A DNA stretch of 64,000 bases from an uncultured virus (IMG/VR IMGVR_UViG_3300027963_000003). Lineage: Duplodnaviria > Heunggongvirae > Uroviricota > Caudoviricetes. Positions 18,421-28,399 of this stretch are shown here, in pieces. A program made the position numbers and the translations under genes. The stretch lies in the IMG/VR virus record IMGVR_UViG_3300027963_000003. One strand, 5' to 3'. The stretch's first letter is position 1, and every line of letters begins with the position of its first letter. The notes under the pieces were generated by a model. That model saw only the letters and a program-made list of their open reading frames with translations, made no database searches and was not told the origin of the DNA.

Positions 18421-18757
18421 TACATTATAAGAAACACTTTAATTTATAAAGATGTTGTAGAACATACCTACCGTTGTTTTTACGTACGAAACAAACTCAA
18501 AAAATATATACCCCCCGGGGGTGTTTGCACGAAAACATAAGGGGGTGCTGTTCTAGGGGTTAACCCTATATATGACAGTTTAGAAAAATATACCCCCCCC
18601 CCCCCCTCTTTTATTAAATTTTAAAAAATCATAATCGTTTGAGCACAATACAGCACAAGGTGCGCGCCAAGTAACATCTAGCCAAAATGGGGTCATGGGG
18701 GTCAAGAATCGGGCGGATATAAAAAAGCGATACTGTCGGACATTATTCAAATATCTA

Positions 18758-18786
18758 TTGACATAGCGCTATGGTACAGGCACAAT
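18758..18786 (+). promoter_or_regulatory. sigma70-type early promoter
   Basis: TTGACA-17bp-CACAAT upstream of the 18833 ORF. Confidence 0.6.
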
Positions 18787-18832
18787 AGAGTTATCGGTTC
18801 GGGACATACTGTTTACGACGATATTTATAGGA

Positions 18833-19324
18833 GTGTCTAAAATGACAATCAAATTAACACCTTCAGAAGTTCGTGCCGTAAACATTGGCAATGCTTTAGT
18901 AGCTGGTAAGAATGCAACGGCTACTATTGATAAAGAATGCCAAGCGGAGCGTAAAGCCCGCAGGGGTAAAGATGTAGGCTTACTCTCTAGTGGTGACGGC
19001 TTTATGGTTCGCATTAACGAGATATTGCAAAAAGCGGGCTGGAAAGAGCAAACCATTAAGAATGCCCTTACCACAGTACGAAAAGCGGTAAACAAAGGCG
19101 ATAAGTTTAGTCTTAACCCTTATCGTGATGCTAGCAAAAAAGGTTCACAAGCGGGTAAGACTGTTGCAACTACAGGAGTGAAGTTCAAAGGCGACGCAAG
19201 CCTCGACGATATTGTGAAGGGTTTGCGTACCATGTTTAATAAGTTCAAAGAAAACGATAAGACAATAAGTTTAGCGTCTTACCTAATTGATGCGCTTAAT
19301 GATTATGAAGGTGATAGCAAGTAA
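18833..19324 (+). CDS. Basic hypothetical protein, first early gene, monocistronic
   Basis: 163 aa with its own promoter, AGGAG RBS (start may be ATG 18842) and terminator. Confidence 0.7.
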   Translation: MSKMTIKLTPSEVRAVNIGNALVAGKNATATIDKECQAERKARRGKDVGLLSSGDGFMVRINEILQKAGWKEQTIKNALTTVRKAVNKGDKFSLNPYRDASKKGSQAGKTVATTGVKFKGDASLDDIVKGLRTMFNKFKENDKTISLASYLIDALNDYEGDSK

Positions 19325-19338
19325 TCACCTAGCGGTTC

Positions 19339-19368
19339 AAAACCTCCGAGAAATCGGGGGTTTTTTTT
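19339..19368 (+). terminator. Rho-independent terminator
   Basis: CCTCCGA-GAAA-TCGGGGG followed by T8. Confidence 0.85.
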
Positions 19369-19538
19369 GCCCTTTTTTTTGAGGAACTGGTGTCATCTAG
19401 GTCGGCGAAGCCGACAGGTTTTAAATTCTTTTTGCTGTTACTTTTTCTTTTATAAGGGGCGCAATGATGAGGGTCAGCGAGGCACAAGTATGGTTGGCGA
19501 AGCCAATGAAATACTGTCAGACAGTACGGGAATAGCCA

Positions 19539-19953
19539 TGTTCACTCTGTTCACTCATGTTCACTCAGTAGTGAACAAACTTTTGGTGCGTTGCACACCT
19601 CGCAAACCCTTGTTTTATATACCTTTTCTTTCTTTCTTTCTTAATAATAATATACCATGTTCACTTGTTCACTCTATTTTAAAATGTATGACGGGGTAAA
19701 TTTTCCTAGCTTTACATTGTCAAGTTCTAATACTGTCAGACAGTACGACGACGAGCCTTTTCTTAGGTGTCATACTTTTGTTCACGAGTGAACATGGTAT
19801 ATTATATTCTCGTAACCTATTGAATCCATTAAAGAATACCTCGTTCCCTGCCCAATGAACATTGCTGAACTTAGTGAACATTTGAGTGAACAACTTGACA
19901 GAGTAAAGGTAAATGGGTAATAAAAAAAGATGTTGTGAGAATGTGAGTGAACA
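19539..19953. repeat. TGTTCAC/GTGAACA heptamer (iteron-like) field, putative origin or terminus
   Basis: TGTTCAC at 19539, 19548, 19558, 19658, 19666, 19779; GTGAACA at 19571, 19788, 19874, 19886, 19947. Confidence 0.8.
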
Positions 19954-20104
19954 AACCAAATACTGTCCGACAGTATTTAACCCCCAAATATGAAACCAGT
20001 TTTTGCTAAAGAGGGCGAGGGAAACTAAAAAACATCTTGCATAACTCAAACACGCAACCCTACTTACTGCGCACTCGTCAAAACCCAAATCGAGAACTAC
20101 CCTA

Positions 20105-20133
20105 TTGACATAGAGTTATAATAGGAGTATAAT
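20105..20133 (+). promoter_or_regulatory. Perfect-consensus sigma70 promoter
   Basis: TTGACA-17bp-TATAAT. Confidence 0.85.
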
Positions 20134-20199
20134 AGATGTATAGAGTCGAGGAACAGCCGTGTTCGAGCCAATCCAAAACCAAATACTGTCAGACAGTAT

Positions 20200-20213
20200 C
20201 GTTCTTTAAAAAT
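20200..20213 (+). promoter_or_regulatory. boxA-like antitermination element
   Basis: CGTTCTTTAAAAAT resembles rrn boxA (TGCTCTTTAACA), ~60 nt after the promoter. Confidence 0.5.
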
Positions 20214-20219
20214 ATGTAA

Positions 20220-20700
20220 AATGCCACGCTTATGCGTGGTGCAGAGTAGGCGTAGGGTGCAGTTGTTTCTAAGCTAAGGTTGTAGGAAACAGACTACTAT
20301 AAGTAAGAAGTATGCGAAAGGCAGAAGGTCGTATTTTGACTGATGAAGCCGATAGCGTGAAGTGATTGAATGTGCAAGGCGAAGTGCCGACAAATCATGA
20401 TGAACCATAAAACAGCAAGCATATTAGAACCAACAAACTAAAACAGCGAATCCCGAGCAGTATCTCTGCGGTAGTAGATTGATGTGGAATAGGTTAGGGT
20501 TTATTAACTTAATTGGGCGAAATACTGTCAGACAGTATCAGAGCCTTCAAAACCCCAAGCCGTTCGACCACACGCACCAATCCCTACCCATGCCCGAACC
20601 CCCCACAGGAACTGCAACAAACTAGCAGAGGGCAAACAAACAAAGAGAAGATTCATAGGTCAGGTTGATCTCGGTCAGCCTGCCCGCTTGAGTTTTTTTA
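20220..20700 (+). ncRNA. Candidate large structured RNA or leader
   Basis: No ORF of 60 aa or more; many hairpins and long-range pairings; ends in a hairpin plus T-run. Confidence 0.45.
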
Positions 20701-20715
20701 CAAAGGAGGTGTTAC

Positions 20716-20820
20716 ATGAAGGACTTAATGGAAGTAGTAGCTTGGGCAGTCGTAGGTGTTTTCACCTATGTACTTTTTGTATGGACTTGGAATTTAATTG
20801 ATTTTATATGGAGGTTTTAA
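20716..20820 (+). CDS. Small membrane peptide (34 aa)
   Basis: AAGGAGG RBS; MKDLMEVVAWAVVGVFTYVLFVWTWNLIDFIWRF. Confidence 0.6.
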   Translation: MKDLMEVVAWAVVGVFTYVLFVWTWNLIDFIWRF

Positions 20821-20970
20821 ATGAACTTATTTTTAGTGTTTATCAACGGGCTTATATTCCTGACTTGCTTTTATGGTCAGTTCAACCAATACGAGGTTAA
20901 TTGGTTCTTTGTGTTTGGTATGGTGTTTAGTGCCATAGTTTTAACTTTATTTATGGGAGATGAGAAATGA
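20821..20970 (+). CDS. Small membrane protein (49 aa)
   Basis: GGAGG RBS; two hydrophobic stretches; ATGA overlap with the next gene. Confidence 0.55.
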   Translation: MNLFLVFINGLIFLTCFYGQFNQYEVNWFFVFGMVFSAIVLTLFMGDEK

Positions 20971-21155
20971 ATAACTTAGTGGGAAAGACAGTAGCAAGCG
21001 TGGTCTATCAAGACCCTTGGAATAACGGAATAACCCTGACATTTACTGACGGCACAGAGGTAAGGGTGAGGGACACCACTCAAACAGGGGACATGGAAGT
21101 TTTAGTTGATGGTGTGGAAATGGAATCTAATTGGCATAAAGGAGAGGAAGAATGA
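20967..21155 (+). CDS. Hypothetical protein
   Basis: 62 aa, coupled in the early operon. Confidence 0.6.
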   Translation: MNNLVGKTVASVVYQDPWNNGITLTFTDGTEVRVRDTTQTGDMEVLVDGVEMESNWHKGEEE

Positions 21156-21271
21156 GTGAAAAACAATGGAAAAGGTTGTTGTGGCATGAGTTGTTTCATT
21201 ATGGGTTTAGACCCGACCCTGCTACACAAAAAAGAATAAGAAAACTACTACTGACAAGGAGTATAAAATGA
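21152..21271 (+). CDS. Small hypothetical protein (39 aa)
   Basis: MSEKQWKRLLWHELFHYGFRPDPATQKRIRKLLLTRSIK; ATGA overlaps at both ends. Confidence 0.5.
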   Translation: MSEKQWKRLLWHELFHYGFRPDPATQKRIRKLLLTRSIK

Positions 21272-21477
21272 AAGCAATATGTAGATGTTGTGGAGACGAA
21301 TACCCACTAGAACGCCTAGTAAAGCTAGGTTACAAAACCTGTTTAGAGTGTGGTATAGACGAAGCCCAAGCCGTAAGCGACGGGTTTACAGTAGCCATTC
21401 CGTTTAATAAGGGTGCGTATCAGTACATCCATAACCCAAAAGAACTCGCACAAACTAACCCAAAGAGGACAACATGA
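21268..21477 (+). CDS. C4 zinc-finger protein (DksA/TraR-like finger)
   Basis: CRCCGDEYPLERL..LGYKTCLEC. Confidence 0.55.
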   Translation: MKAICRCCGDEYPLERLVKLGYKTCLECGIDEAQAVSDGFTVAIPFNKGAYQYIHNPKELAQTNPKRTT

Positions 21478-21749
21478 GCAGAGCATACCAACAAAGGGTA
21501 GAGGTAAAAGACCCTTACATGACCTTACAGGAGATTGCCGACATGATGGGCATGAGTCGGGAGAGGGTCAGGCAGATAGAATTGCGTGCCTTGGGTAAGG
21601 TTAAAAAGGAACTATATAAGCGAGGCATAACGGCTGAGGACTTTCTAACTACCCTTAAGTACATGAAACCCATTAAGCCTAGCCCTGACGAAATACTGTC
21701 AGACAGTATGTACGAACTAATTGAACCCGAAAGGAACGAAGATGATTAA
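21474..21749 (+). CDS. Stand-alone sigma70 region 4 HTH protein
   Basis: MTLQEIADMMGMSRERVRQIELRALGKVK. Confidence 0.8.
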   Translation: MSRAYQQRVEVKDPYMTLQEIADMMGMSRERVRQIELRALGKVKKELYKRGITAEDFLTTLKYMKPIKPSPDEILSDSMYELIEPERNEDD

Positions 21750-21990
21750 GTGTACGGAATACCGCATGGGCAAACCCCGAACCATTACGGACAAGCCGTT
21801 AAAGATGCCACGAGCCAATGACCCTGTATATCTAGGGGCTAAGTTAGTTAAGGCTGATTCTACGCAAGCAAGACGGGAACTGGTCTCGGATGTGAACCCA
21901 TTTTTCTACATCTTTGGGGAAAACCTAACCCCATACAAAGACTATTTAACCTACGAGGAGAACATGAATGAGAAAGAAAGCAATAGCTAA
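21742..21990 (+). CDS. Hypothetical protein
   Basis: Start at MIKC; operon packing. Confidence 0.5.
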   Translation: MIKCTEYRMGKPRTITDKPLKMPRANDPVYLGAKLVKADSTQARRELVSDVNPFFYIFGENLTPYKDYLTYEENMNEKESNS

Positions 21991-22258
21991 GAAAGTAATG
22001 GCTAAGTTTAAACCCGACCCAGACTCACACCTATATCTAGGGGAAACAGACCCTGCACAGTTTATCCACAGTAACAAGACACACCGCACAGTTAGCGAGG
22101 CATTTCGTGACGCTGATTATGCAACTGCGTTTTGGCGTAGCAAGAGTGATTGGGAAGAGGCAGTAGATTTTGTAGAGCAGGCACTACTCGGGTTTATATG
22201 GGTAGGTGTAGTTGCAGGGCTAGTAGGAGCAGTAGCGTATTGGTTCATTTGGGGCTAA
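21968..22258 (+). CDS. Hypothetical protein with C-terminal TM helix
   Basis: RTVSEAFRDADYA motif and hydrophobic tail. Confidence 0.6.
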   Translation: MRKKAIAKKVMAKFKPDPDSHLYLGETDPAQFIHSNKTHRTVSEAFRDADYATAFWRSKSDWEEAVDFVEQALLGFIWVGVVAGLVGAVAYWFIWG

Positions 22259-22305
22259 TACTGTCAGACAGTATTTTTATTTCACAACATCTTAGGAGAA
22301 TCAAA

Positions 22306-23259
22306 ATGAGTTTAGAAAAGTTCGAGCATTTCAAGCAACGCTTCATCAACACCGCACCAATCAGAGGTAGAGCAGTAGAGTGCAGACCAATCGGCAAGCG
22401 TAGTAGGGATTGGGAACAGATAGTCAAGCGTTACATTGTGGAGGAGGGCGCACTTGATGTGGAGGGTGGAGAGGCATACGGCGCACACCTACATAGTACC
22501 GACTGTGTTATGTATATGGCAGATGGGTCTATCCATATTAAAACCGATGGGTGGGAAACACCAATAACGGCAGAGTTTATCAATCGTTATGTACCACGAG
22601 ATATGCGTTGCTACAAGAAATACACCAAGATATGGATTGAATATAAAAGTCAGAATTATGTATTGCATAGCACCAAACCTACTGTATTTCGCTATGTTAA
22701 ATCAGACGACGCCTACTATATCGAGAACCCTATCAAGCTAGAGCAAAAGGTAATTGACAGAACCAAGATGAAAACGGCTAGGGATAAGCTAACACCATTC
22801 CGTAACTATGCCAAGATCATGCTCAAACTAGCTGATGGGTGGTTGAGTAACGAGTTAGTAGATCAACACGCAACAGGCGACACCGATTACTATGGTCGTA
22901 GGTCTTATGAGTTTAATGGCAAGAAATATGATCGTTGGGCATTGACAGGTTCAATTAGTTCAAATATTGCAGGTGAGTTATACGAGGCTATGTGTAATGC
23001 AACGGAAGAACAATTCCCAAAACTTCTTTGTGTAATCTGTGCAACTAGCAACTACAAAGAGAGCCGTACCTGTAAGACTATTCAAGTAGAACGCACCGAC
23101 TATCAAGGCAACAAGCATATGGAGAATCAAGATATTCGTGAGCATCAGTACGACTACAAGACTGTGGACAATCGCATTAACTACCTCATTAAGCAAGTAG
23201 CTGATGTGCATACAACAAAAGAAGTAGCGTTAGGTGTGGTTGCTACAAACTGCTTATGA
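22306..23259 (+). CDS. Hypothetical protein
   Basis: Start reassigned to MSLEKF after the AGGAG RBS. Confidence 0.7.
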   Translation: MSLEKFEHFKQRFINTAPIRGRAVECRPIGKRSRDWEQIVKRYIVEEGALDVEGGEAYGAHLHSTDCVMYMADGSIHIKTDGWETPITAEFINRYVPRDMRCYKKYTKIWIEYKSQNYVLHSTKPTVFRYVKSDDAYYIENPIKLEQKVIDRTKMKTARDKLTPFRNYAKIMLKLADGWLSNELVDQHATGDTDYYGRRSYEFNGKKYDRWALTGSISSNIAGELYEAMCNATEEQFPKLLCVICATSNYKESRTCKTIQVERTDYQGNKHMENQDIREHQYDYKTVDNRINYLIKQVADVHTTKEVALGVVATNCL

Positions 23260-23270
23260 GGTTTGTGCTA

Positions 23271-23299
23271 TTGACACAGAGGTAGTATAGAGTTATAAT
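23271..23299 (+). promoter_or_regulatory. Perfect-consensus sigma70 promoter
   Basis: TTGACA-17bp-TATAAT; flanks (cta..., ...agatgtata) identical to the 20105 promoter. Confidence 0.85.
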
Positions 23300-23385
23300 A
23301 GATGTATAAGTAGATGTTGTGGGGTCGTAGCCTAATACTGTCAGACAGTATTGGGTTTTTTTAATTTTAAATCAAGGAGAAGTAT

Positions 23386-24504
23386 ATGAGTATCAAGTTC
23401 GGTAGTTCCTTAACTCTCAACGAGTTTGCTAATGCAATATCAACAGTAGGTTCTGATGTAACTATCATTGGTCAGGGTGAGCCTGGAATTGGTAAGAGTT
23501 CTATGCTCAAGGCAGTAGCCAAGCGTTACCCCGACTATGAGGTAGCCTACATTGATTGCACCCTGTTAGACCTAGGTGACTTTGCGCTTCCGTATACGGA
23601 GGAGGTGGTTCTAGAAAAACTGGCATCAACTCTCAAAGTAACTAAGTTCGCACCAAACGCTAGGTTTAAATTCCAATCGGGTAAGCCTGTAATCGTTATG
23701 CTTGACGAGATAGGCAAGGCTATGAAGGCGGTCAAGAATGTATTGCTCACGCTGATGTTAGAAAAGCGTATTGGTGATATGTCTTTGCCCGAGGGTTCGA
23801 TTGTCTTTGGTACAACTAATCTAGCAACTGATGGGGTAGGTGATAGCCTAGAGGCTCATGCTCGTAATCGGGTTTGTTTTGTGACTGTACGCAAACCACA
23901 CGCAGGCTTCCAAGCTGATGGCTCTATTGACTCTGACTCTTGGGGTGCGTGGGCTGTGGAGAATGATATTGCTCCTGAGGTATTGGCATGGGTTAAGCAA
24001 TTCCCTCATGCCTTGGAGTCTTATACTGACCCTGCCCAAAAAGATAATCTGTACATCTTTAACCCAACTAAGGCAGGACAGTCGGCGTTCGTGACCCCTC
24101 GTAGTTTAGAGAAGGCTAGTCATATAGCTAAGAAGCGTGCTGACCTAGGTGATGGCGTAACTATCTCGGCATTGGCAGGCACAATCGGTGAGAGTGCGGC
24201 TCGTGATATGCAAGCGTTCTTTACTGTGGTGGACAAGCTACCTACATGGGAGTCTATCTGTAATTCACCTACAACGGCTAAAGTTCCTGATGATGCGGTG
24301 GCTAAATGTATCTTGACCTTCTCTGCTATTACTCGGGTTGATAAAGATACGCTACCTAAGTGGCTCAAGTATGCAGACCGATTGGATAAAGAATTACAGG
24401 CGTTGTTTGCCCGTTCAATCGTGAAGTCTACTACCAAGCAAGCTATGGCGGTGTCCAATAAAGACTTTGTGAAGTGGGCTACCGATAACCAATGGTTGTT
24501 TTAA
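23386..24504 (+). CDS. MoxR-like AAA+ ATPase
   Basis: GEPGIGKS Walker A, VMLDE Walker B, TTN sensor, NR finger, TPRS. Confidence 0.85.
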   Translation: MSIKFGSSLTLNEFANAISTVGSDVTIIGQGEPGIGKSSMLKAVAKRYPDYEVAYIDCTLLDLGDFALPYTEEVVLEKLASTLKVTKFAPNARFKFQSGKPVIVMLDEIGKAMKAVKNVLLTLMLEKRIGDMSLPEGSIVFGTTNLATDGVGDSLEAHARNRVCFVTVRKPHAGFQADGSIDSDSWGAWAVENDIAPEVLAWVKQFPHALESYTDPAQKDNLYIFNPTKAGQSAFVTPRSLEKASHIAKKRADLGDGVTISALAGTIGESAARDMQAFFTVVDKLPTWESICNSPTTAKVPDDAVAKCILTFSAITRVDKDTLPKWLKYADRLDKELQALFARSIVKSTTKQAMAVSNKDFVKWATDNQWLF

Positions 24505-24541
24505 TCAATACTGTCAGACAGTATTAGAAAAGGAGAAACAA

Positions 24542-25723
24542 ATGACTAGACTAACTGCTGAACAACGAGTTCAAAAGTCCCATGTAGCATTGATGAACGA
24601 CCCTAAGTATTGTTTGTATTCGGGTATCTTCATGCTAGGTAAGACTGAGGTAGATGATGACTTGGCTACTGCTTGCACCGATGGTAAGAATACCTACTAT
24701 GGGCGTAAGTTCGTGGACAAGCTAAAGGATTCTGAATTGAAGGGCTTGATACTTCACGAGAATCTACACAAGGCTTTCCGCCATACAACTGTATGGAAAC
24801 ATCTTTACAAACAGAACCCACAACTAGCGAACATGGCTTGTGACTTTGTTATTAACTTAATGATTCACGACTCAGACCCACAAGGTGCAATGGTAACTCT
24901 ACCTGAAGGTGGTTTGTTAGACGAGAAGTATCGGGGCATGGATGCAGGCGAAGTATTTCGTTTACTTAAACAACAAGGAGGTAAGGGTGGAAAAGGCAAT
25001 GGTGATGGCGAAGATGAACAAGAAGGTGGGCAGGGCTTTGACGAGCATGATTGGGAAGGTGCAGACGCCTTATCAGAAGATGAGAAACAAGCATTGGCTC
25101 GTGAAGTCGATCAAGCATTAAGACAGGGCGCACTACTAGCAGGCAAACTCAACGGCAATGTACCTCGTGAGATTACTGAGGCAATGACGGCTAAGGTTAA
25201 TTGGAAAGAAGTATTAGCCGACTTTGTGAACTCTATCTGCAACGATAAGGATAACTCTACATGGCGCAGACCAAATCGTAGGTGGGTAGATCAGGGTGTC
25301 TATATGCCTAGCGCAATAGGTGAGGCAGTAGGTCGCATTGTTGTAGCCATTGATATGTCAGGCTCTATTGGTCCGAATGAGATAGGTCAATTCTTAGGTG
25401 AACTCTTATCCATATGTAACCATGTGCAACCCGAGGGTATCGACTTAATGTATTGGGACACCGAGGTATGCGCTCATGAGAAGTATGAACGAGGTGACTA
25501 CGAAGCAATCATGTCATCTACTAAACCTGCAGGGGGTGGTGGTACAAGTGCGGAATGTATTCCTAAATACATTGAGCAACACAAGCTAAACCCTGAGTGT
25601 GTAATCGTGCTGACTGACGGCTACATTGGTGGGTGGGGTGATTGGAAACACCCTGTGTTTTGGGGTATGACAACTGACATGGTTGCCCCTATGGGTATAT
25701 CTGTAAAAATCGAGGAGAACTAA
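24542..25723 (+). CDS. Metallopeptidase-like plus vWA domain protein (DUF2201-like)
   Basis: TACTDG, HENLH (HExxH), DMSGS MIDAS, GGGT, VLTDG. Confidence 0.8.
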   Translation: MTRLTAEQRVQKSHVALMNDPKYCLYSGIFMLGKTEVDDDLATACTDGKNTYYGRKFVDKLKDSELKGLILHENLHKAFRHTTVWKHLYKQNPQLANMACDFVINLMIHDSDPQGAMVTLPEGGLLDEKYRGMDAGEVFRLLKQQGGKGGKGNGDGEDEQEGGQGFDEHDWEGADALSEDEKQALAREVDQALRQGALLAGKLNGNVPREITEAMTAKVNWKEVLADFVNSICNDKDNSTWRRPNRRWVDQGVYMPSAIGEAVGRIVVAIDMSGSIGPNEIGQFLGELLSICNHVQPEGIDLMYWDTEVCAHEKYERGDYEAIMSSTKPAGGGGTSAECIPKYIEQHKLNPECVIVLTDGYIGGWGDWKHPVFWGMTTDMVAPMGISVKIEEN

Positions 25724-25724
25724 G

Positions 25725-25925
25725 ATGGCAATAGCTAGAGGATTTGAAACGTTGATGTTAAAGACAGAAGCTAAGAAGAAGTTTTTAGAAGCAAAGAAGA
25801 AGATGGAGTCGCAGTTAGGTGTAACTCTTACGCACTCAAATGCTATGGAGGTTATGGCTGACCAAATACTGTCAGACAGTACGAAGTTACGATTAAGGAT
25901 TGTCCCACTAACACAAGGAGAATGA
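25725..25925 (+). CDS. Small basic hypothetical protein
   Basis: 66 aa with GAGGAG RBS; contains a palindrome copy. Confidence 0.55.
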   Translation: MAIARGFETLMLKTEAKKKFLEAKKKMESQLGVTLTHSNAMEVMADQILSDSTKLRLRIVPLTQGE

Positions 25926-26767
25926 AAATGATTGGAAGCAACGCTATGCTAGTAGACCTAAACATTTCTATGTGGACAGGTCGTAAGATGGATAAGAAAG
26001 TATCCGAGGAGATTGATGTAAGCAAGAGTACCAAGGCTCGGGCAGGTAACTACAACAAGAAGTTATTGGCAGGCTCGGACAAGCTAGAGAAGGTGCAGAA
26101 GATTGCTACTGCTGTGCGTACTTGGAACTATCAACATACCTTACCTTGGTCTGATGGTGGCTCACGCTTGTTACCTATGAAGTCTTTCTTTGATTACAAG
26201 GCTACGCTAGGCAACTATGAGCAACAATACAACGATGCGGTGGATGACTTTCTTGTGGAATATCCGCAACTGGTTTCATCTTCTGCGTTTACGCTTGGTG
26301 CTTTGTTTGACCGAAACGAGTATCCCGATGTTGAGGACTTGCGTTCTAAGTTTCGCTTTAAGTATGTGTTCTGTCCTGTACCTGATGCAGGGGATTTCAG
26401 AATAGATGTTGAGGAACAGGCTAAGAACGAACTGCAACAACAATACAAAGAGTATTACGACGGCAAGTTAGCTGACGCTATGAAAGACGCATGGGATAGG
26501 TTGCATGAAACCCTGACTCATTTGAGTGATCGTATGGATTACACAGACGAGAATAAAAAGAAGTTTTGGGATTCTACTATTACCAATGCCTCTGACCTGT
26601 GTGGGTTGCTGACAAGCCTCAATGTGACTGACGACCCTAAGTTAGAAGCTATGCGTCAGAAGTTAGAGAAAGCATTAAATGGTGTAGATGCCTCAGACAT
26701 TCGTGAAAGCGAAGCAATTCGTACTAGCGTTAAGTCTAAGGTTGATGATATTTTATCTATGTTCTAA
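25922..26767 (+). CDS. DUF3150-like protein
   Basis: LVDLNISMWTGRK.D...TLPW...YP..EDLRSKF.F pattern; follows the AAA/vWA pair. Confidence 0.55.
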   Translation: MKMIGSNAMLVDLNISMWTGRKMDKKVSEEIDVSKSTKARAGNYNKKLLAGSDKLEKVQKIATAVRTWNYQHTLPWSDGGSRLLPMKSFFDYKATLGNYEQQYNDAVDDFLVEYPQLVSSSAFTLGALFDRNEYPDVEDLRSKFRFKYVFCPVPDAGDFRIDVEEQAKNELQQQYKEYYDGKLADAMKDAWDRLHETLTHLSDRMDYTDENKKKFWDSTITNASDLCGLLTSLNVTDDPKLEAMRQKLEKALNGVDASDIRESEAIRTSVKSKVDDILSMF

Positions 26768-26776
26768 GGAGGGTGT

Positions 26777-26938
26777 ATGAAGAAATGGAAAGGTTGGGTA
26801 ATTAGAAAAGAGTATTTTCTAGTCCATGTTGAAGCAGATACATGGGAAGAAGCTAAAGAAAAAATGTGGGATATAGAAGTAGAGGACGAGCCAGTAGATA
26901 TTGACTGGGAAATCTATGACATACAGGAGGATGAGTAA
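26777..26938 (+). CDS. Small acidic hypothetical protein (53 aa)
   Basis: AGGAGG RBS; MKKWKGW...VEADTWEEAKEK. Confidence 0.6.
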   Translation: MKKWKGWVIRKEYFLVHVEADTWEEAKEKMWDIEVEDEPVDIDWEIYDIQEDE

Positions 26939-27357
26939 TGGGATACAGAAGCGAGGTAGGGTTTTATATCGAATTTACAAAAGACCCCGAGGAGTTTGTT
27001 GCCCTGATGAAAGTAGATGGGCGAGATATATTCAAAGACTTCTTGCGGTTTATGTATATCGAAAACTATAAAGACAGACCAATGGAAGATGATGACCCGA
27101 AAGGTGGTGTTCACTTTTACCATGAACATTGGAAGTGGTATGACGATTCTAAAAACGGCTTTATGGATTTGCTTAACATGGCTGGAGATTTTGACAACAA
27201 CTTTAAAGCTAAGTTTGCAAGAACAGGAGAGGAGTCAGATGACACAGAAGAAGAATGGTTCAATGATGACGACTATGAACTGGAATACCCCTATATGGTA
27301 CGCAGAGTAGAAACGGCAATGGATTTAACTAAACTAAAAAAAGTGGAGGATGTATGA
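26938..27357 (+). CDS. Acidic hypothetical protein
   Basis: MGYRSEV...WKWY...RTGEESDD. Confidence 0.7.
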   Translation: MGYRSEVGFYIEFTKDPEEFVALMKVDGRDIFKDFLRFMYIENYKDRPMEDDDPKGGVHFYHEHWKWYDDSKNGFMDLLNMAGDFDNNFKAKFARTGEESDDTEEEWFNDDDYELEYPYMVRRVETAMDLTKLKKVEDV

Positions 27358-27575
27358 AAACCATAATTCATGTAAACCAACATGAGATAAAAGCCAACGC
27401 TAAGAATGGGACTACTAACCCTGTGCTAACTGTTAAAACATACAAAGATAACATCTATGCACATGAAGTAGTAATCAAGGGGGATAGTAGGATAGTTTAT
27501 TCCCCCGACAAACCCCTATCTTGCGGTGCTAAGGTATGGATAGAAACCCAAGCAGAAGTAGAAGTAATTAACTAA
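27354..27575 (+). CDS. Conserved phage hypothetical protein
   Basis: IHVNQH...YSPDKPLSCGAKVWIET. Confidence 0.7.
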   Translation: MKTIIHVNQHEIKANAKNGTTNPVLTVKTYKDNIYAHEVVIKGDSRIVYSPDKPLSCGAKVWIETQAEVEVIN

Positions 27576-27589
27576 CAAGGAGAATAAAA

Positions 27590-28399
27590 ATGCTACAACT
27601 AGACAACATAGACAAAACACAACTAAGCCCACCTGTATTAGAAATACTGGAAGCGATGGAACTAAAGCACGCCAAGTTAGGATACTGTCTGACAGTATCG
27701 GCGGTACAAAACACAGGTAGAGATCAGTATTGGCAGTTACGTTTTAACGATGCCCGCTTTTCTGATGATGCTTTAATAGATTTTGTGGGTGTAGTGGAAT
27801 GGACATACGGCAAGCGTAGTGACCACGAGTACAAGATTACCTCACGCAAGATTCAGAATGATAGGTTCGGGCATTGGGGTAACGAACACTCAGCACAACG
27901 CACTAAAGATGTTAAGAAAGCATTGAAGATTGCGATGACCAACATAGTACCATTTGAGTGGCATGAGGTTTCTGCTAATGGTAGGCGTAGGGCAGAGCAA
28001 GCACATGAGCAATGGAGTAGTGCAGACAATAGGGCTATTTACCCATTTAAAATTGGGTACGAAGAAATGTATGAAGAGATTAAATACCTGATATCCACAG
28101 GAGTTCAGTTCAAAACCGAGCAATTTAAAAAGGCGGCAGCAGGAATTGAGGCATATGAAGAGATGCGACGCAAGATAAGCATTAAACCTAAATTCGATAC
28201 GGTTATCGTGCGCCCTGACAAAGCCGTTTTTATACCCAATGGTTATGCCCTGCAACCCAAAGAGTTCGGCGCAGTTGACGACCTACCTGAACAAACCAGA
28301 ACTAATATCGCTCTTTTAAAACTTGTTGAGAAAGACACACTACTACCCGAGGTAGGTTATCGGGGTGGGGAAAACACCTACTTTATTTTGGTTCAATAG
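27590..28399 (+). CDS. Hypothetical protein
   Basis: 269 aa with AAGGAG RBS; contains a palindrome copy. Confidence 0.7.
   Translation: MLQLDNIDKTQLSPPVLEILEAMELKHAKLGYCLTVSAVQNTGRDQYWQLRFNDARFSDDALIDFVGVVEWTYGKRSDHEYKITSRKIQNDRFGHWGNEHSAQRTKDVKKALKIAMTNIVPFEWHEVSANGRRRAEQAHEQWSSADNRAIYPFKIGYEEMYEEIKYLISTGVQFKTEQFKKAAAGIEAYEEMRRKISIKPKFDTVIVRPDKAVFIPNGYALQPKEFGAVDDLPEQTRTNIALLKLVEKDTLLPEVGYRGGENTYFILVQ

What the first reader, a model, noticed from the sequence alone, without database searches (positions are those of the whole stretch)
20134..20700. Candidate ~500-nt structured ncRNA behind a perfect promoter, with a dyad copy at the tip of a long hairpin
Seen: after TTGACA-17-TATAAT there is no ORF of 60 aa or more until 20716. 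Pairings by eye: GCCACGC/GCGTGGT (20223-20240); TGTTTC/GAAACA; long-range TGCAGTT(~20258)/AACTGCA(~20610). A long interrupted stem runs GGTAG..GATTG..TGTGG..GGTTAGGGTTT (20470-20502) against AAACCCCAAGCC..CCACA..CAATC.CTACC (~20550-20588) and encloses the 20522 dyad. A final CAGGTTGATC/GGTCAGCCTG hairpin precedes a T-run. Several stems need G-U pairs on the + strand, which points to RNA-level structure. Inference: an undescribed large phage RNA or an antiterminator/leader RNA.
Basis: partly seen in the sequence, partly recalled or inferred. Interest (0 to 1): 0.75.

Follow-up and report, generated by a model that had tools for sequence, protein, structure and literature searches.

The report
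Phage boxA leader carrying new RNA
Right behind its perfect-consensus early promoter this phage carries a ribosomal-RNA-type boxA signal followed by a conserved, intricately base-paired 430-letter RNA that matches no Rfam family; the signal likely lets host polymerase get through and fold this RNA, which is likely cut free to act as a separate molecule early in infection.

Summary
The structured RNA is real. The window is a 65.6-kb phage. Protein and motif searches gave 43 distinct full copies at the same place, between the terminase side and the first early genes. Across 26 representatives the + strand folds better than the - strand in 25, and helix P3 is paired in all 26 with double-sided changes at 5 of 6 pairs. 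Three arms vary in length by up to 220 nt.

Its linker resembles that of the T7 early leader. Among relatives, boxA and a long leader RNA occur together (21 of 21) or are both absent (24 of 24).

The dyad is a lineage-specific DNA palindrome sitting in variable arms, not part of the core. The last hairpin looks more like a T7-type RNase III stem than a conserved terminator.

Best model: a T7/rrn-type boxA leader with an inserted cargo RNA of a new class. Function and expression are untested. No Rfam match. This scan noted the family before on two other genomes.

The parts
20105..20133 (+). Consensus sigma-70 promoter; start predicted near 20140
   Evidence: 12/12; near-consensus promoter upstream of boxA in 26 of 26 representatives
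20140..20199 (+). Variable 5' segment (16-156 nt from the -10 hexamer to boxA in homologs) with a weak hairpin and one dyad copy (20183-20199)
20201..20211 (+). boxA, perfect match to the GYTCTTTAANA consensus; unpaired in the predicted fold
   Evidence: the only + strand match in the window
20212..20222 (+). Single-stranded linker ending in an A-rich run, like the T7 post-boxA linker
20223..20240 (+). P2 hairpin, closed by an invariant G-U pair; arm segment 28-116 nt in homologs
   Evidence: G-U in 26 of 26; 5' register chosen by best fit
20241..20246 (+). P3 5' strand (pairs with 20464-20469)
   Evidence: paired in 26 of 26, double-sided changes at 5 of 6 pairs
20247..20254 (+). 5' strand of a nearly invariant internal loop (predicted loop-E-like; comparison recalled)
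   Evidence: one form in 25 of 26, a C-to-U variant in 1
20255..20454 (+). P4 arm: covarying base helix plus a variable insertion (15-235 nt in homologs)
20455..20463 (+). 3' strand of the conserved internal loop
20464..20469 (+). P3 3' strand
20470..20588 (+). P5 long interrupted rod (33-133 nt in the 26 representatives), dyad copy 20522-20538 at its tip
20591..20634 (+). Conserved three-way junction: P6 (20591-20595/20630-20634), small P7 with an ACA-type loop (about 20602-20610), invariant P8 (20612-20615/20625-20628)
   Evidence: model R1 finds a homolog outside its training set at 40.5 bits
20645..20699 (+). 22-bp irregular 3' stem ending in a U7 run; predicted RNase III-type processing stem and/or leaky terminator
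   Evidence: z -4.5; a stem of 18 bp or more before the ribosome site in 23 of 26
20704..20820 (+). Shine-Dalgarno (20704-20709) and first early ORF (20716-20820, 34 aa, no PHROG or Pfam hit)

Best explanation
The stretch is the untranslated start of the phage's early operon and holds a boxA signal followed by a conserved 430-nt folded RNA; boxA likely loads the host's rRNA-type Nus antitermination complex, and the folded RNA is likely released at the 3' stem to act as a separate protein-binding scaffold or decoy. Shown: promoter, boxA, covarying helices, fixed genomic position, joint presence or absence of boxA and long RNA among relatives. Inferred: transcription; Nus binding; protection from Rho and help with folding, as on rRNA; release by RNase III at the long 3' stem, as on T7 early RNA, or by leaky termination at the U-run; action in trans. 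Read-through past 20700 would be needed for genes 20716-23259.
For: boxA matches the published consensus (passages) and rRNA-operon spacers of two betaproteobacteria. T7 has boxA at 813-823 between promoter A3 and gene 0.3, with a similar linker and a 26-bp irregular stem before the ribosome site. Of 64 distinct AAA-ATPase rows, 18 of 18 with the core and 3 of 3 with an unrelated structured RNA have boxA, 0 of 24 with the slot covered and no RNA have it, and 19 were not covered. Sister phages L384 and L398 share a similar promoter and first gene but differ by the whole cassette. The RNA was swapped for another behind the same boxA in L353/L355/L356. The first downstream gene differs among lineages. 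Arms vary widely around a small invariant core. Nus complexes act as RNA chaperones on rRNA (passages).
Against: No expression, processing or binding data. The presence/absence pattern rests on about two independent contrasts on a quick tree, and RNA-less phages may infect hosts with another boxA. The core always starts about 9-13 nt after boxA, which fits a cis partner of the Nus complex equally well. 3 of 26 (L384, L488, L532) lack the long 3' stem and have a U-rich tract instead. No target protein was identified. Single-sequence folding is only moderate (z -2.25; mean -1.87 over 26) and near zero in some homologs.
Confidence: 0.45

Rival explanations
1. The core is a cis-acting antitermination module (put- or EAR-like) that works with boxA to make polymerase processive over the early operon; it is never a separate RNA.
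For: Fixed position and orientation about 9-13 nt after boxA at the head of the early operon. Downstream genes appear to depend on this promoter. put and EAR are RNA antiterminators (passages).
Against: put is about 65 nt, while this core spans 250-487 nt with freely varying arms. T7 has boxA with no such core. 24 relatives run the same gene order with neither element, and 5 of them checked have a start codon 51-99 nt after an early promoter.
Confidence: 0.3
2. The core is a ribozyme that cleaves or joins RNA. The invariant loop strand could pair with the P8 5' strand to give a P3-P7-P8-like pseudoknot, as in group I introns.
For: Small invariant core with large variable arms. P8 is invariant although it is a local hairpin. 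The only substitution within the loop 3' strand's complementary stretch is C to U, which keeps a G-U pair.
Against: No Rfam ribozyme or intron hit. No P4-P6 domain or group I consensus motifs seen by eye (motifs recalled). The same C-to-U change fits a pyrimidine mismatch in a symmetric loop. The pseudoknot pairs never covary.
Confidence: 0.12
3. The RNA is a riboswitch or attenuator that senses a ligand or protein and controls the first early genes through the 3' hairpins.
For: In the L011, L017/L033 and L093 groups a short hairpin after P6 and the long 3' stem are mutually exclusive, and both change sequence together. A U-run follows the stem in 10 of 26.
Against: The short hairpin is absent from the window's group. 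The downstream gene is not conserved. The ribosome site lies outside the stem in the window and most homologs. No Rfam riboswitch hit over the element.
Confidence: 0.09
4. The region acts at DNA level (cruciforms, operator array, origin or genome end), or encodes small peptides.
For: Twelve dyad copies lie in 18731-27697, two inside the element.
Against: + strand folds better in 25 of 26. G-U outnumbers A-C 41 to 2 in P2 and P3, of which 26 are one invariant pair. Arm lengths fall in all three reading frames and the longest ORFs lie at different places. Dyads differ by lineage and avoid the core.
Confidence: 0.04

Closest known systems
Phage T7 early leader (host promoters A1-A3, boxA, RNase III stem, gene 0.3)
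   Same: Host promoter, perfect boxA, very similar linker, long irregular stem just before the first early gene. RNase III cutting of T7 early RNA comes from a reference title; the exact site is recalled.
   Different: T7 has about 100 nt between boxA and gene 0.3 and no match to the core model. Here about 410 nt of conserved folded RNA are inserted.
rrn operon leader and spacer (boxB-boxA-boxC, NusA/B/E/G, SuhB, S4)
   Same: Same boxA letters as betaproteobacterial rRNA spacers. boxA precedes a long untranslated structured RNA. An upstream hairpin is optional.
   Different: No rRNA or tRNA follows. No boxC was identified. The cargo is phage-specific: not found in 151 genomes of the family of G001 (which had no positive control genome).
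Lambdoid nut sites and HK022 put; B. subtilis EAR
   Same: RNA signals at the head of early operons that modify polymerase (passages).
   Different: No fixed boxB-size hairpin after boxA and no N-like gene identified. The element is several times larger than put. No Rfam hit.
Large ornate phage/bacterial ncRNAs (GOLLD, ROOL, OLE)
   Same: Hundreds of nucleotides, multi-helix, and a function not known from sequence.
   Different: No Rfam match even for the shortest homologs. It sits in a read-through leader behind boxA.

Membership tests
rrn/T7-type boxA leader | boxA consensus GYTCTTTAANA on the transcribed strand | tested here: met
   20201-20211; 18 of 26 representatives are exact, 8 differ at one position
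rrn/T7-type boxA leader | Shortly downstream of a host promoter, unpaired, upstream of the first genes | tested here: met
rrn/T7-type boxA leader | NusB/NusE binding and Rho read-through | not testable with these tools
   needs ChIP, binding or reporter assay
rrn/T7-type boxA leader | RNase III processing stem before the first gene | tested here: inconclusive
   stem of 18 bp or more in 23 of 26; cleavage determinants not scored, cleavage not shown
Lambdoid nut/N system | Small fixed boxB hairpin right after boxA | tested here: not met
   P2 segment ranges 28-116 nt with no conserved loop
Lambdoid nut/N system | Phage N-like RNA-binding protein | tested here: inconclusive
   30 window proteins scanned, no such hit; upstream 163-aa gene has no PHROG or Pfam hit; other small ORFs not scanned
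HK022 put RNA | About 65-nt double hairpin | tested here: not met
   core 250-487 nt; size of put
Group I intron / known ribozymes | Match to Rfam models; P4-P6 domain and consensus motifs | tested here: not met
   motifs compared by eye from recall
Group I intron / known ribozymes | Catalytic activity | not testable with these tools
   needs in vitro assay
6S RNA, tmRNA, RNase P, SRP, 5S rRNA, GOLLD, ROOL, OLE | Match to the family's covariance model, or a tmRNA/tRNA call | tested here: not met
   no hit over the element at E up to 10, none in short homologs at E up to 5, ARAGORN none
5S rRNA mimic (loop E-like module) | Symmetric non-canonical loop bound by bL25 | tested here: inconclusive
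   the internal loop is symmetric and nearly invariant; likeness to loop E is recalled, the register is by eye, and it is one pair longer
Riboswitch / attenuator | Conserved regulated gene and conserved expression platform | tested here: not met
   first gene and 3' structures differ among lineages

The most novel reading that the evidence does not exclude
Phages keep an exchangeable RNA-gene slot built like a miniature rRNA operon: a strong promoter and boxA borrow the host's ribosome-building transcription machine to fold a new class of about 430-nt RNA, which is cut free as one of the first phage products and disarms or redirects a host protein complex, or is itself catalytic.
Probability: 0.4. 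Interest if true: 0.85.

Novelty: new variant of a known kind. Interest (0 to 1): 0.68.

Why it matters
It gives a new large structured RNA family from uncultured phages, with a covariation-supported core that can be made and probed directly; the shortest natural cores are 250-280 nt. It also suggests that boxA can serve as a search tag for hidden phage RNA genes: a second, unrelated RNA turned up behind boxA in the same slot. If the model holds, phages use the host's rRNA antitermination and folding machine to make their own ncRNA.

Tried and rejected
Rfam: whole window, element, short and divergent homologs: no hit over the element. ARAGORN: none. blastn of the element against 50,697 annotated phages: three chance 30-nt hits.

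Bacterial genomes: a motif scan of genome contigs (120 loci returned of about 310 estimated) gave no locus with two of the three companion motifs. The AAA-anchored scan found no relative. Model R1 matched 0 of 151 genomes in the family of G001, without a positive control. R1 did not match T7 1-1500 or the terminase flanks of DSL-LC04 and HTVC023P (partial genomes only).

Sequencing runs: no RNA holder listed. Run X1 is contigs of relatives and says nothing on expression.

A 16-codon GTG ORF ending in boxA is in frame in a few close relatives but not in others (read by eye): rejected as a leader peptide. Likeness to hammerhead, tmRNA tag, SRP helix 8, 5S loop C and group II domain 5 was considered by eye from recall and not supported. 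One betaproteobacterial boxA match (G002 contig 25, 23-34) lies in a promoter spacer and was not counted as support. A covariance model of the P3 domain could not be calibrated.

Literature: seven answered searches bear on prior description or comparators, plus one on RNase III; none listed a description of this RNA. In PMC10690425 six motifs were absent from seven supplement files, but files 1 and 2 were not searchable. The CRISPR-array boxA paper was not available, so that parallel is recalled.

Full report
Setting. The window is the first 64 kb of a 65,656-base virus record with direct terminal repeats. Portal, terminases, HNH and HslV genes run leftwards from about 18,300. A 163-aa gene, small early genes, an AAA ATPase, DUF2201, DUF3150, DNA polymerase A and helicases run rightwards. 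The closest annotated phages by terminase are 023Pt_psg01, DSL-LC04 and Pelagibacter phages HTVC027P/023P at 53-58%. The host is unknown; the boxA form suggests Beta- or Gammaproteobacteria (inference).

Observation. The promoter is a 12 of 12 match at 20105-20133. The next gene with a Shine-Dalgarno starts at 20716. The 541 nt from 20160 fold with z -2.25 on + and -0.56 on -. Rfam and ARAGORN give nothing over the element.

Homologs. Neighbour proteins and three motif patterns in four scans (two of these scans stopped at 120 loci) gave 43 distinct full copies, reduced to 26 representatives by shared words. Where flanks were checked they lie at the same place, between the 163-aa gene and the first early gene. 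The parser required a boxA-like motif and at least 5 of 6 pairs in P3, so those two counts are partly circular. The divergent copies L350, L351 and L384 were reached through the AAA protein, and their compensatory P3 changes were seen before that filter. A more distant copy (L583), not in the training set, is found by the junction model at 40.5 bits, E 4e-9.

Structure. The order is promoter, variable 5' segment, boxA, linker, P2, P3 enclosing a nearly invariant internal loop and the P4 arm, the P5 rod, a three-way junction (P6, P7, P8), a long 3' stem, and the ribosome site. On a fixed-column alignment P3 is paired in 26 of 26, with double-sided changes at 5 of 6 pairs; the P4 base has them at 3 of 3; 0 of 500 shuffles reach four of the five measures, while the fifth is reached by 101 (shuffles ignore relatedness). 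The outer P6 pairs show three and five pair types, and the long form of P7 two or three per pair (registers of P2, P5 and P6 were chosen by best fit, which inflates pairing). P8 is invariant, so it has no covariation support. Arm lengths run 28-116, 15-235 and 33-133 nt in all frames. The + strand folds better in 25 of 26 (mean z -1.87 versus -0.36, 15 shuffles each). This is RNA-level, non-coding conservation.

The dyad. Twelve copies lie in 18731-27697. Other lineages have other palindromes. In the 26 representatives copies fall in the 5' segment, the P2 or P5 arms or the 3' stem, never in core positions. It is best read as a DNA site tolerated in variable arms; its function was not studied.

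boxA. 20201-20211 matches the consensus given in PMC5725501 (passages seen). It is the only + strand match in the window; there are 3 matches on both strands against 0.65 expected. The same letters stand in rRNA-operon spacers of G001 and G002, after the tRNAs. T7 has a perfect boxA at 813-823, between A3 (750) and gene 0.3 (925), followed by a linker close to that of several homologs and a 26-bp irregular stem. The phage leader therefore reads as a T7-type leader with about 410 nt inserted between linker and stem. PMC8632103 (passages seen) describes boxA-nucleated Nus complexes as antiterminators and RNA chaperones on rRNA, and put and EAR as RNA antiterminators.

Distribution. From the best 80 of 265 AAA relatives, 64 distinct rows of 300 aa or more were kept: 18 with the core, 3 with another RNA, 24 with the slot covered and no RNA, 19 not covered. 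All 21 RNA-bearing rows have boxA; none of the 24 has it, even with a relaxed pattern. On the quick tree most RNA-less phages form one side, so this is about two independent contrasts. The clearest is L384 versus L398, with nearly identical AAA, a similar promoter and a homologous first gene, but leaders of about 600 and 76 nt. L353, L355 and L356 nest among core-bearing phages but carry an unrelated folded RNA behind boxA.

The 3' end. The scanner does not call the last hairpin a terminator. A U-run follows the stem in 10 of 26; 10 have none before the ribosome site; 3 have a U-rich tract directly after P6 and no long stem; the other 3 are a 4-U run, an internal run and one row cut short by the parser. 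No + promoter match lies between 20133 and 23271, so read-through would be needed. A stem of 18 bp or more precedes the ribosome site in 23 of 26, as in T7. RNase III release is an inference; I did not score cleavage determinants (PMC6212723, passages only).

Mechanism. Shown: a conserved folded RNA directly behind boxA in an early leader. Inferred at about 0.75: boxA loads the host Nus complex. For the core I favour a released cargo RNA (0.45) over a cis antiterminator (0.30), a ribozyme (0.12) or a riboswitch (0.09). The reasons are that boxA appears only where a long RNA must be transcribed, the cargo is exchangeable, T7 has boxA without such a core, and neither the downstream gene nor the 3' structure is conserved. 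Against this stand the fixed boxA-to-core spacing, the few independent contrasts, and the lack of any expression or binding data.

Novelty. The boxA leader is a known kind; the RNA matches no Rfam family and was not found in the bacterial genomes searched. Paper searches (listings only) showed no description. For PMC10690425 I saw the abstract, the supplement list and motif searches of seven files; two large files were not searchable, so parts of this RNA may be among its 10,006 candidates. PMC13753749 was searched for five terms with one hit, in its reference list. Two earlier notes of this scan describe the family on other genomes; I had boxA and the core before reading them and took the T7 comparison from one, then tested it.

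Noticed in passing
L353:800-1260, L355:6680-7160, L356:4551-5040: A second, unrelated structured RNA of about 450 nt behind boxA in the same slot; 11 of 102 predicted pairs have double-sided changes in 3 sequences; no Rfam hit.
   Followed up: partly
window 18731-27697: Twelve copies of a 15-17-bp palindrome confined to the early region. Related phages carry lineage-specific palindromes, many with the same central GTC-N-GAC; possibly sites for an early phage DNA-binding protein.
   Followed up: partly
window 18833-19324: Lys/Ala-rich 163-aa gene with its own promoter match, a dyad just upstream and a hairpin plus U-run behind it; no PHROG or Pfam hit; ORFs of similar size sit at this place in RNA-less relatives.
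   Followed up: partly
window 19530-19960: Cluster of short TGTTCAC/GTGAACA repeats in direct and inverted orientation, conserved in L009 and L010; possible origin, packaging or genome-end signal.
   Followed up: no
L017:2620-2730, L011:2320-2430 (-), L093:1815-1960: A short hairpin right after P6 and the long 3' stem are mutually exclusive, and both change sequence together across three groups: a possible co-transcriptional switch, absent from the window's group.
   Followed up: partly
window 23271-23357: Second perfect sigma-70 promoter, with a dyad-containing hairpin and U-run about 30 nt downstream, before the AAA ATPase.
   Followed up: no
window 21474-21749: Stand-alone sigma-70 region 4 protein with a dyad inside its coding sequence.
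   Followed up: no
window 20159-20209: 16-codon GTG ORF whose stop codon lies inside boxA; in frame in a few close relatives only.
   Followed up: yes
L399, L402, L403 (about 350-370 nt upstream of the leader boxA): A second boxA-like match upstream of the promoter in some relatives.
   Followed up: no
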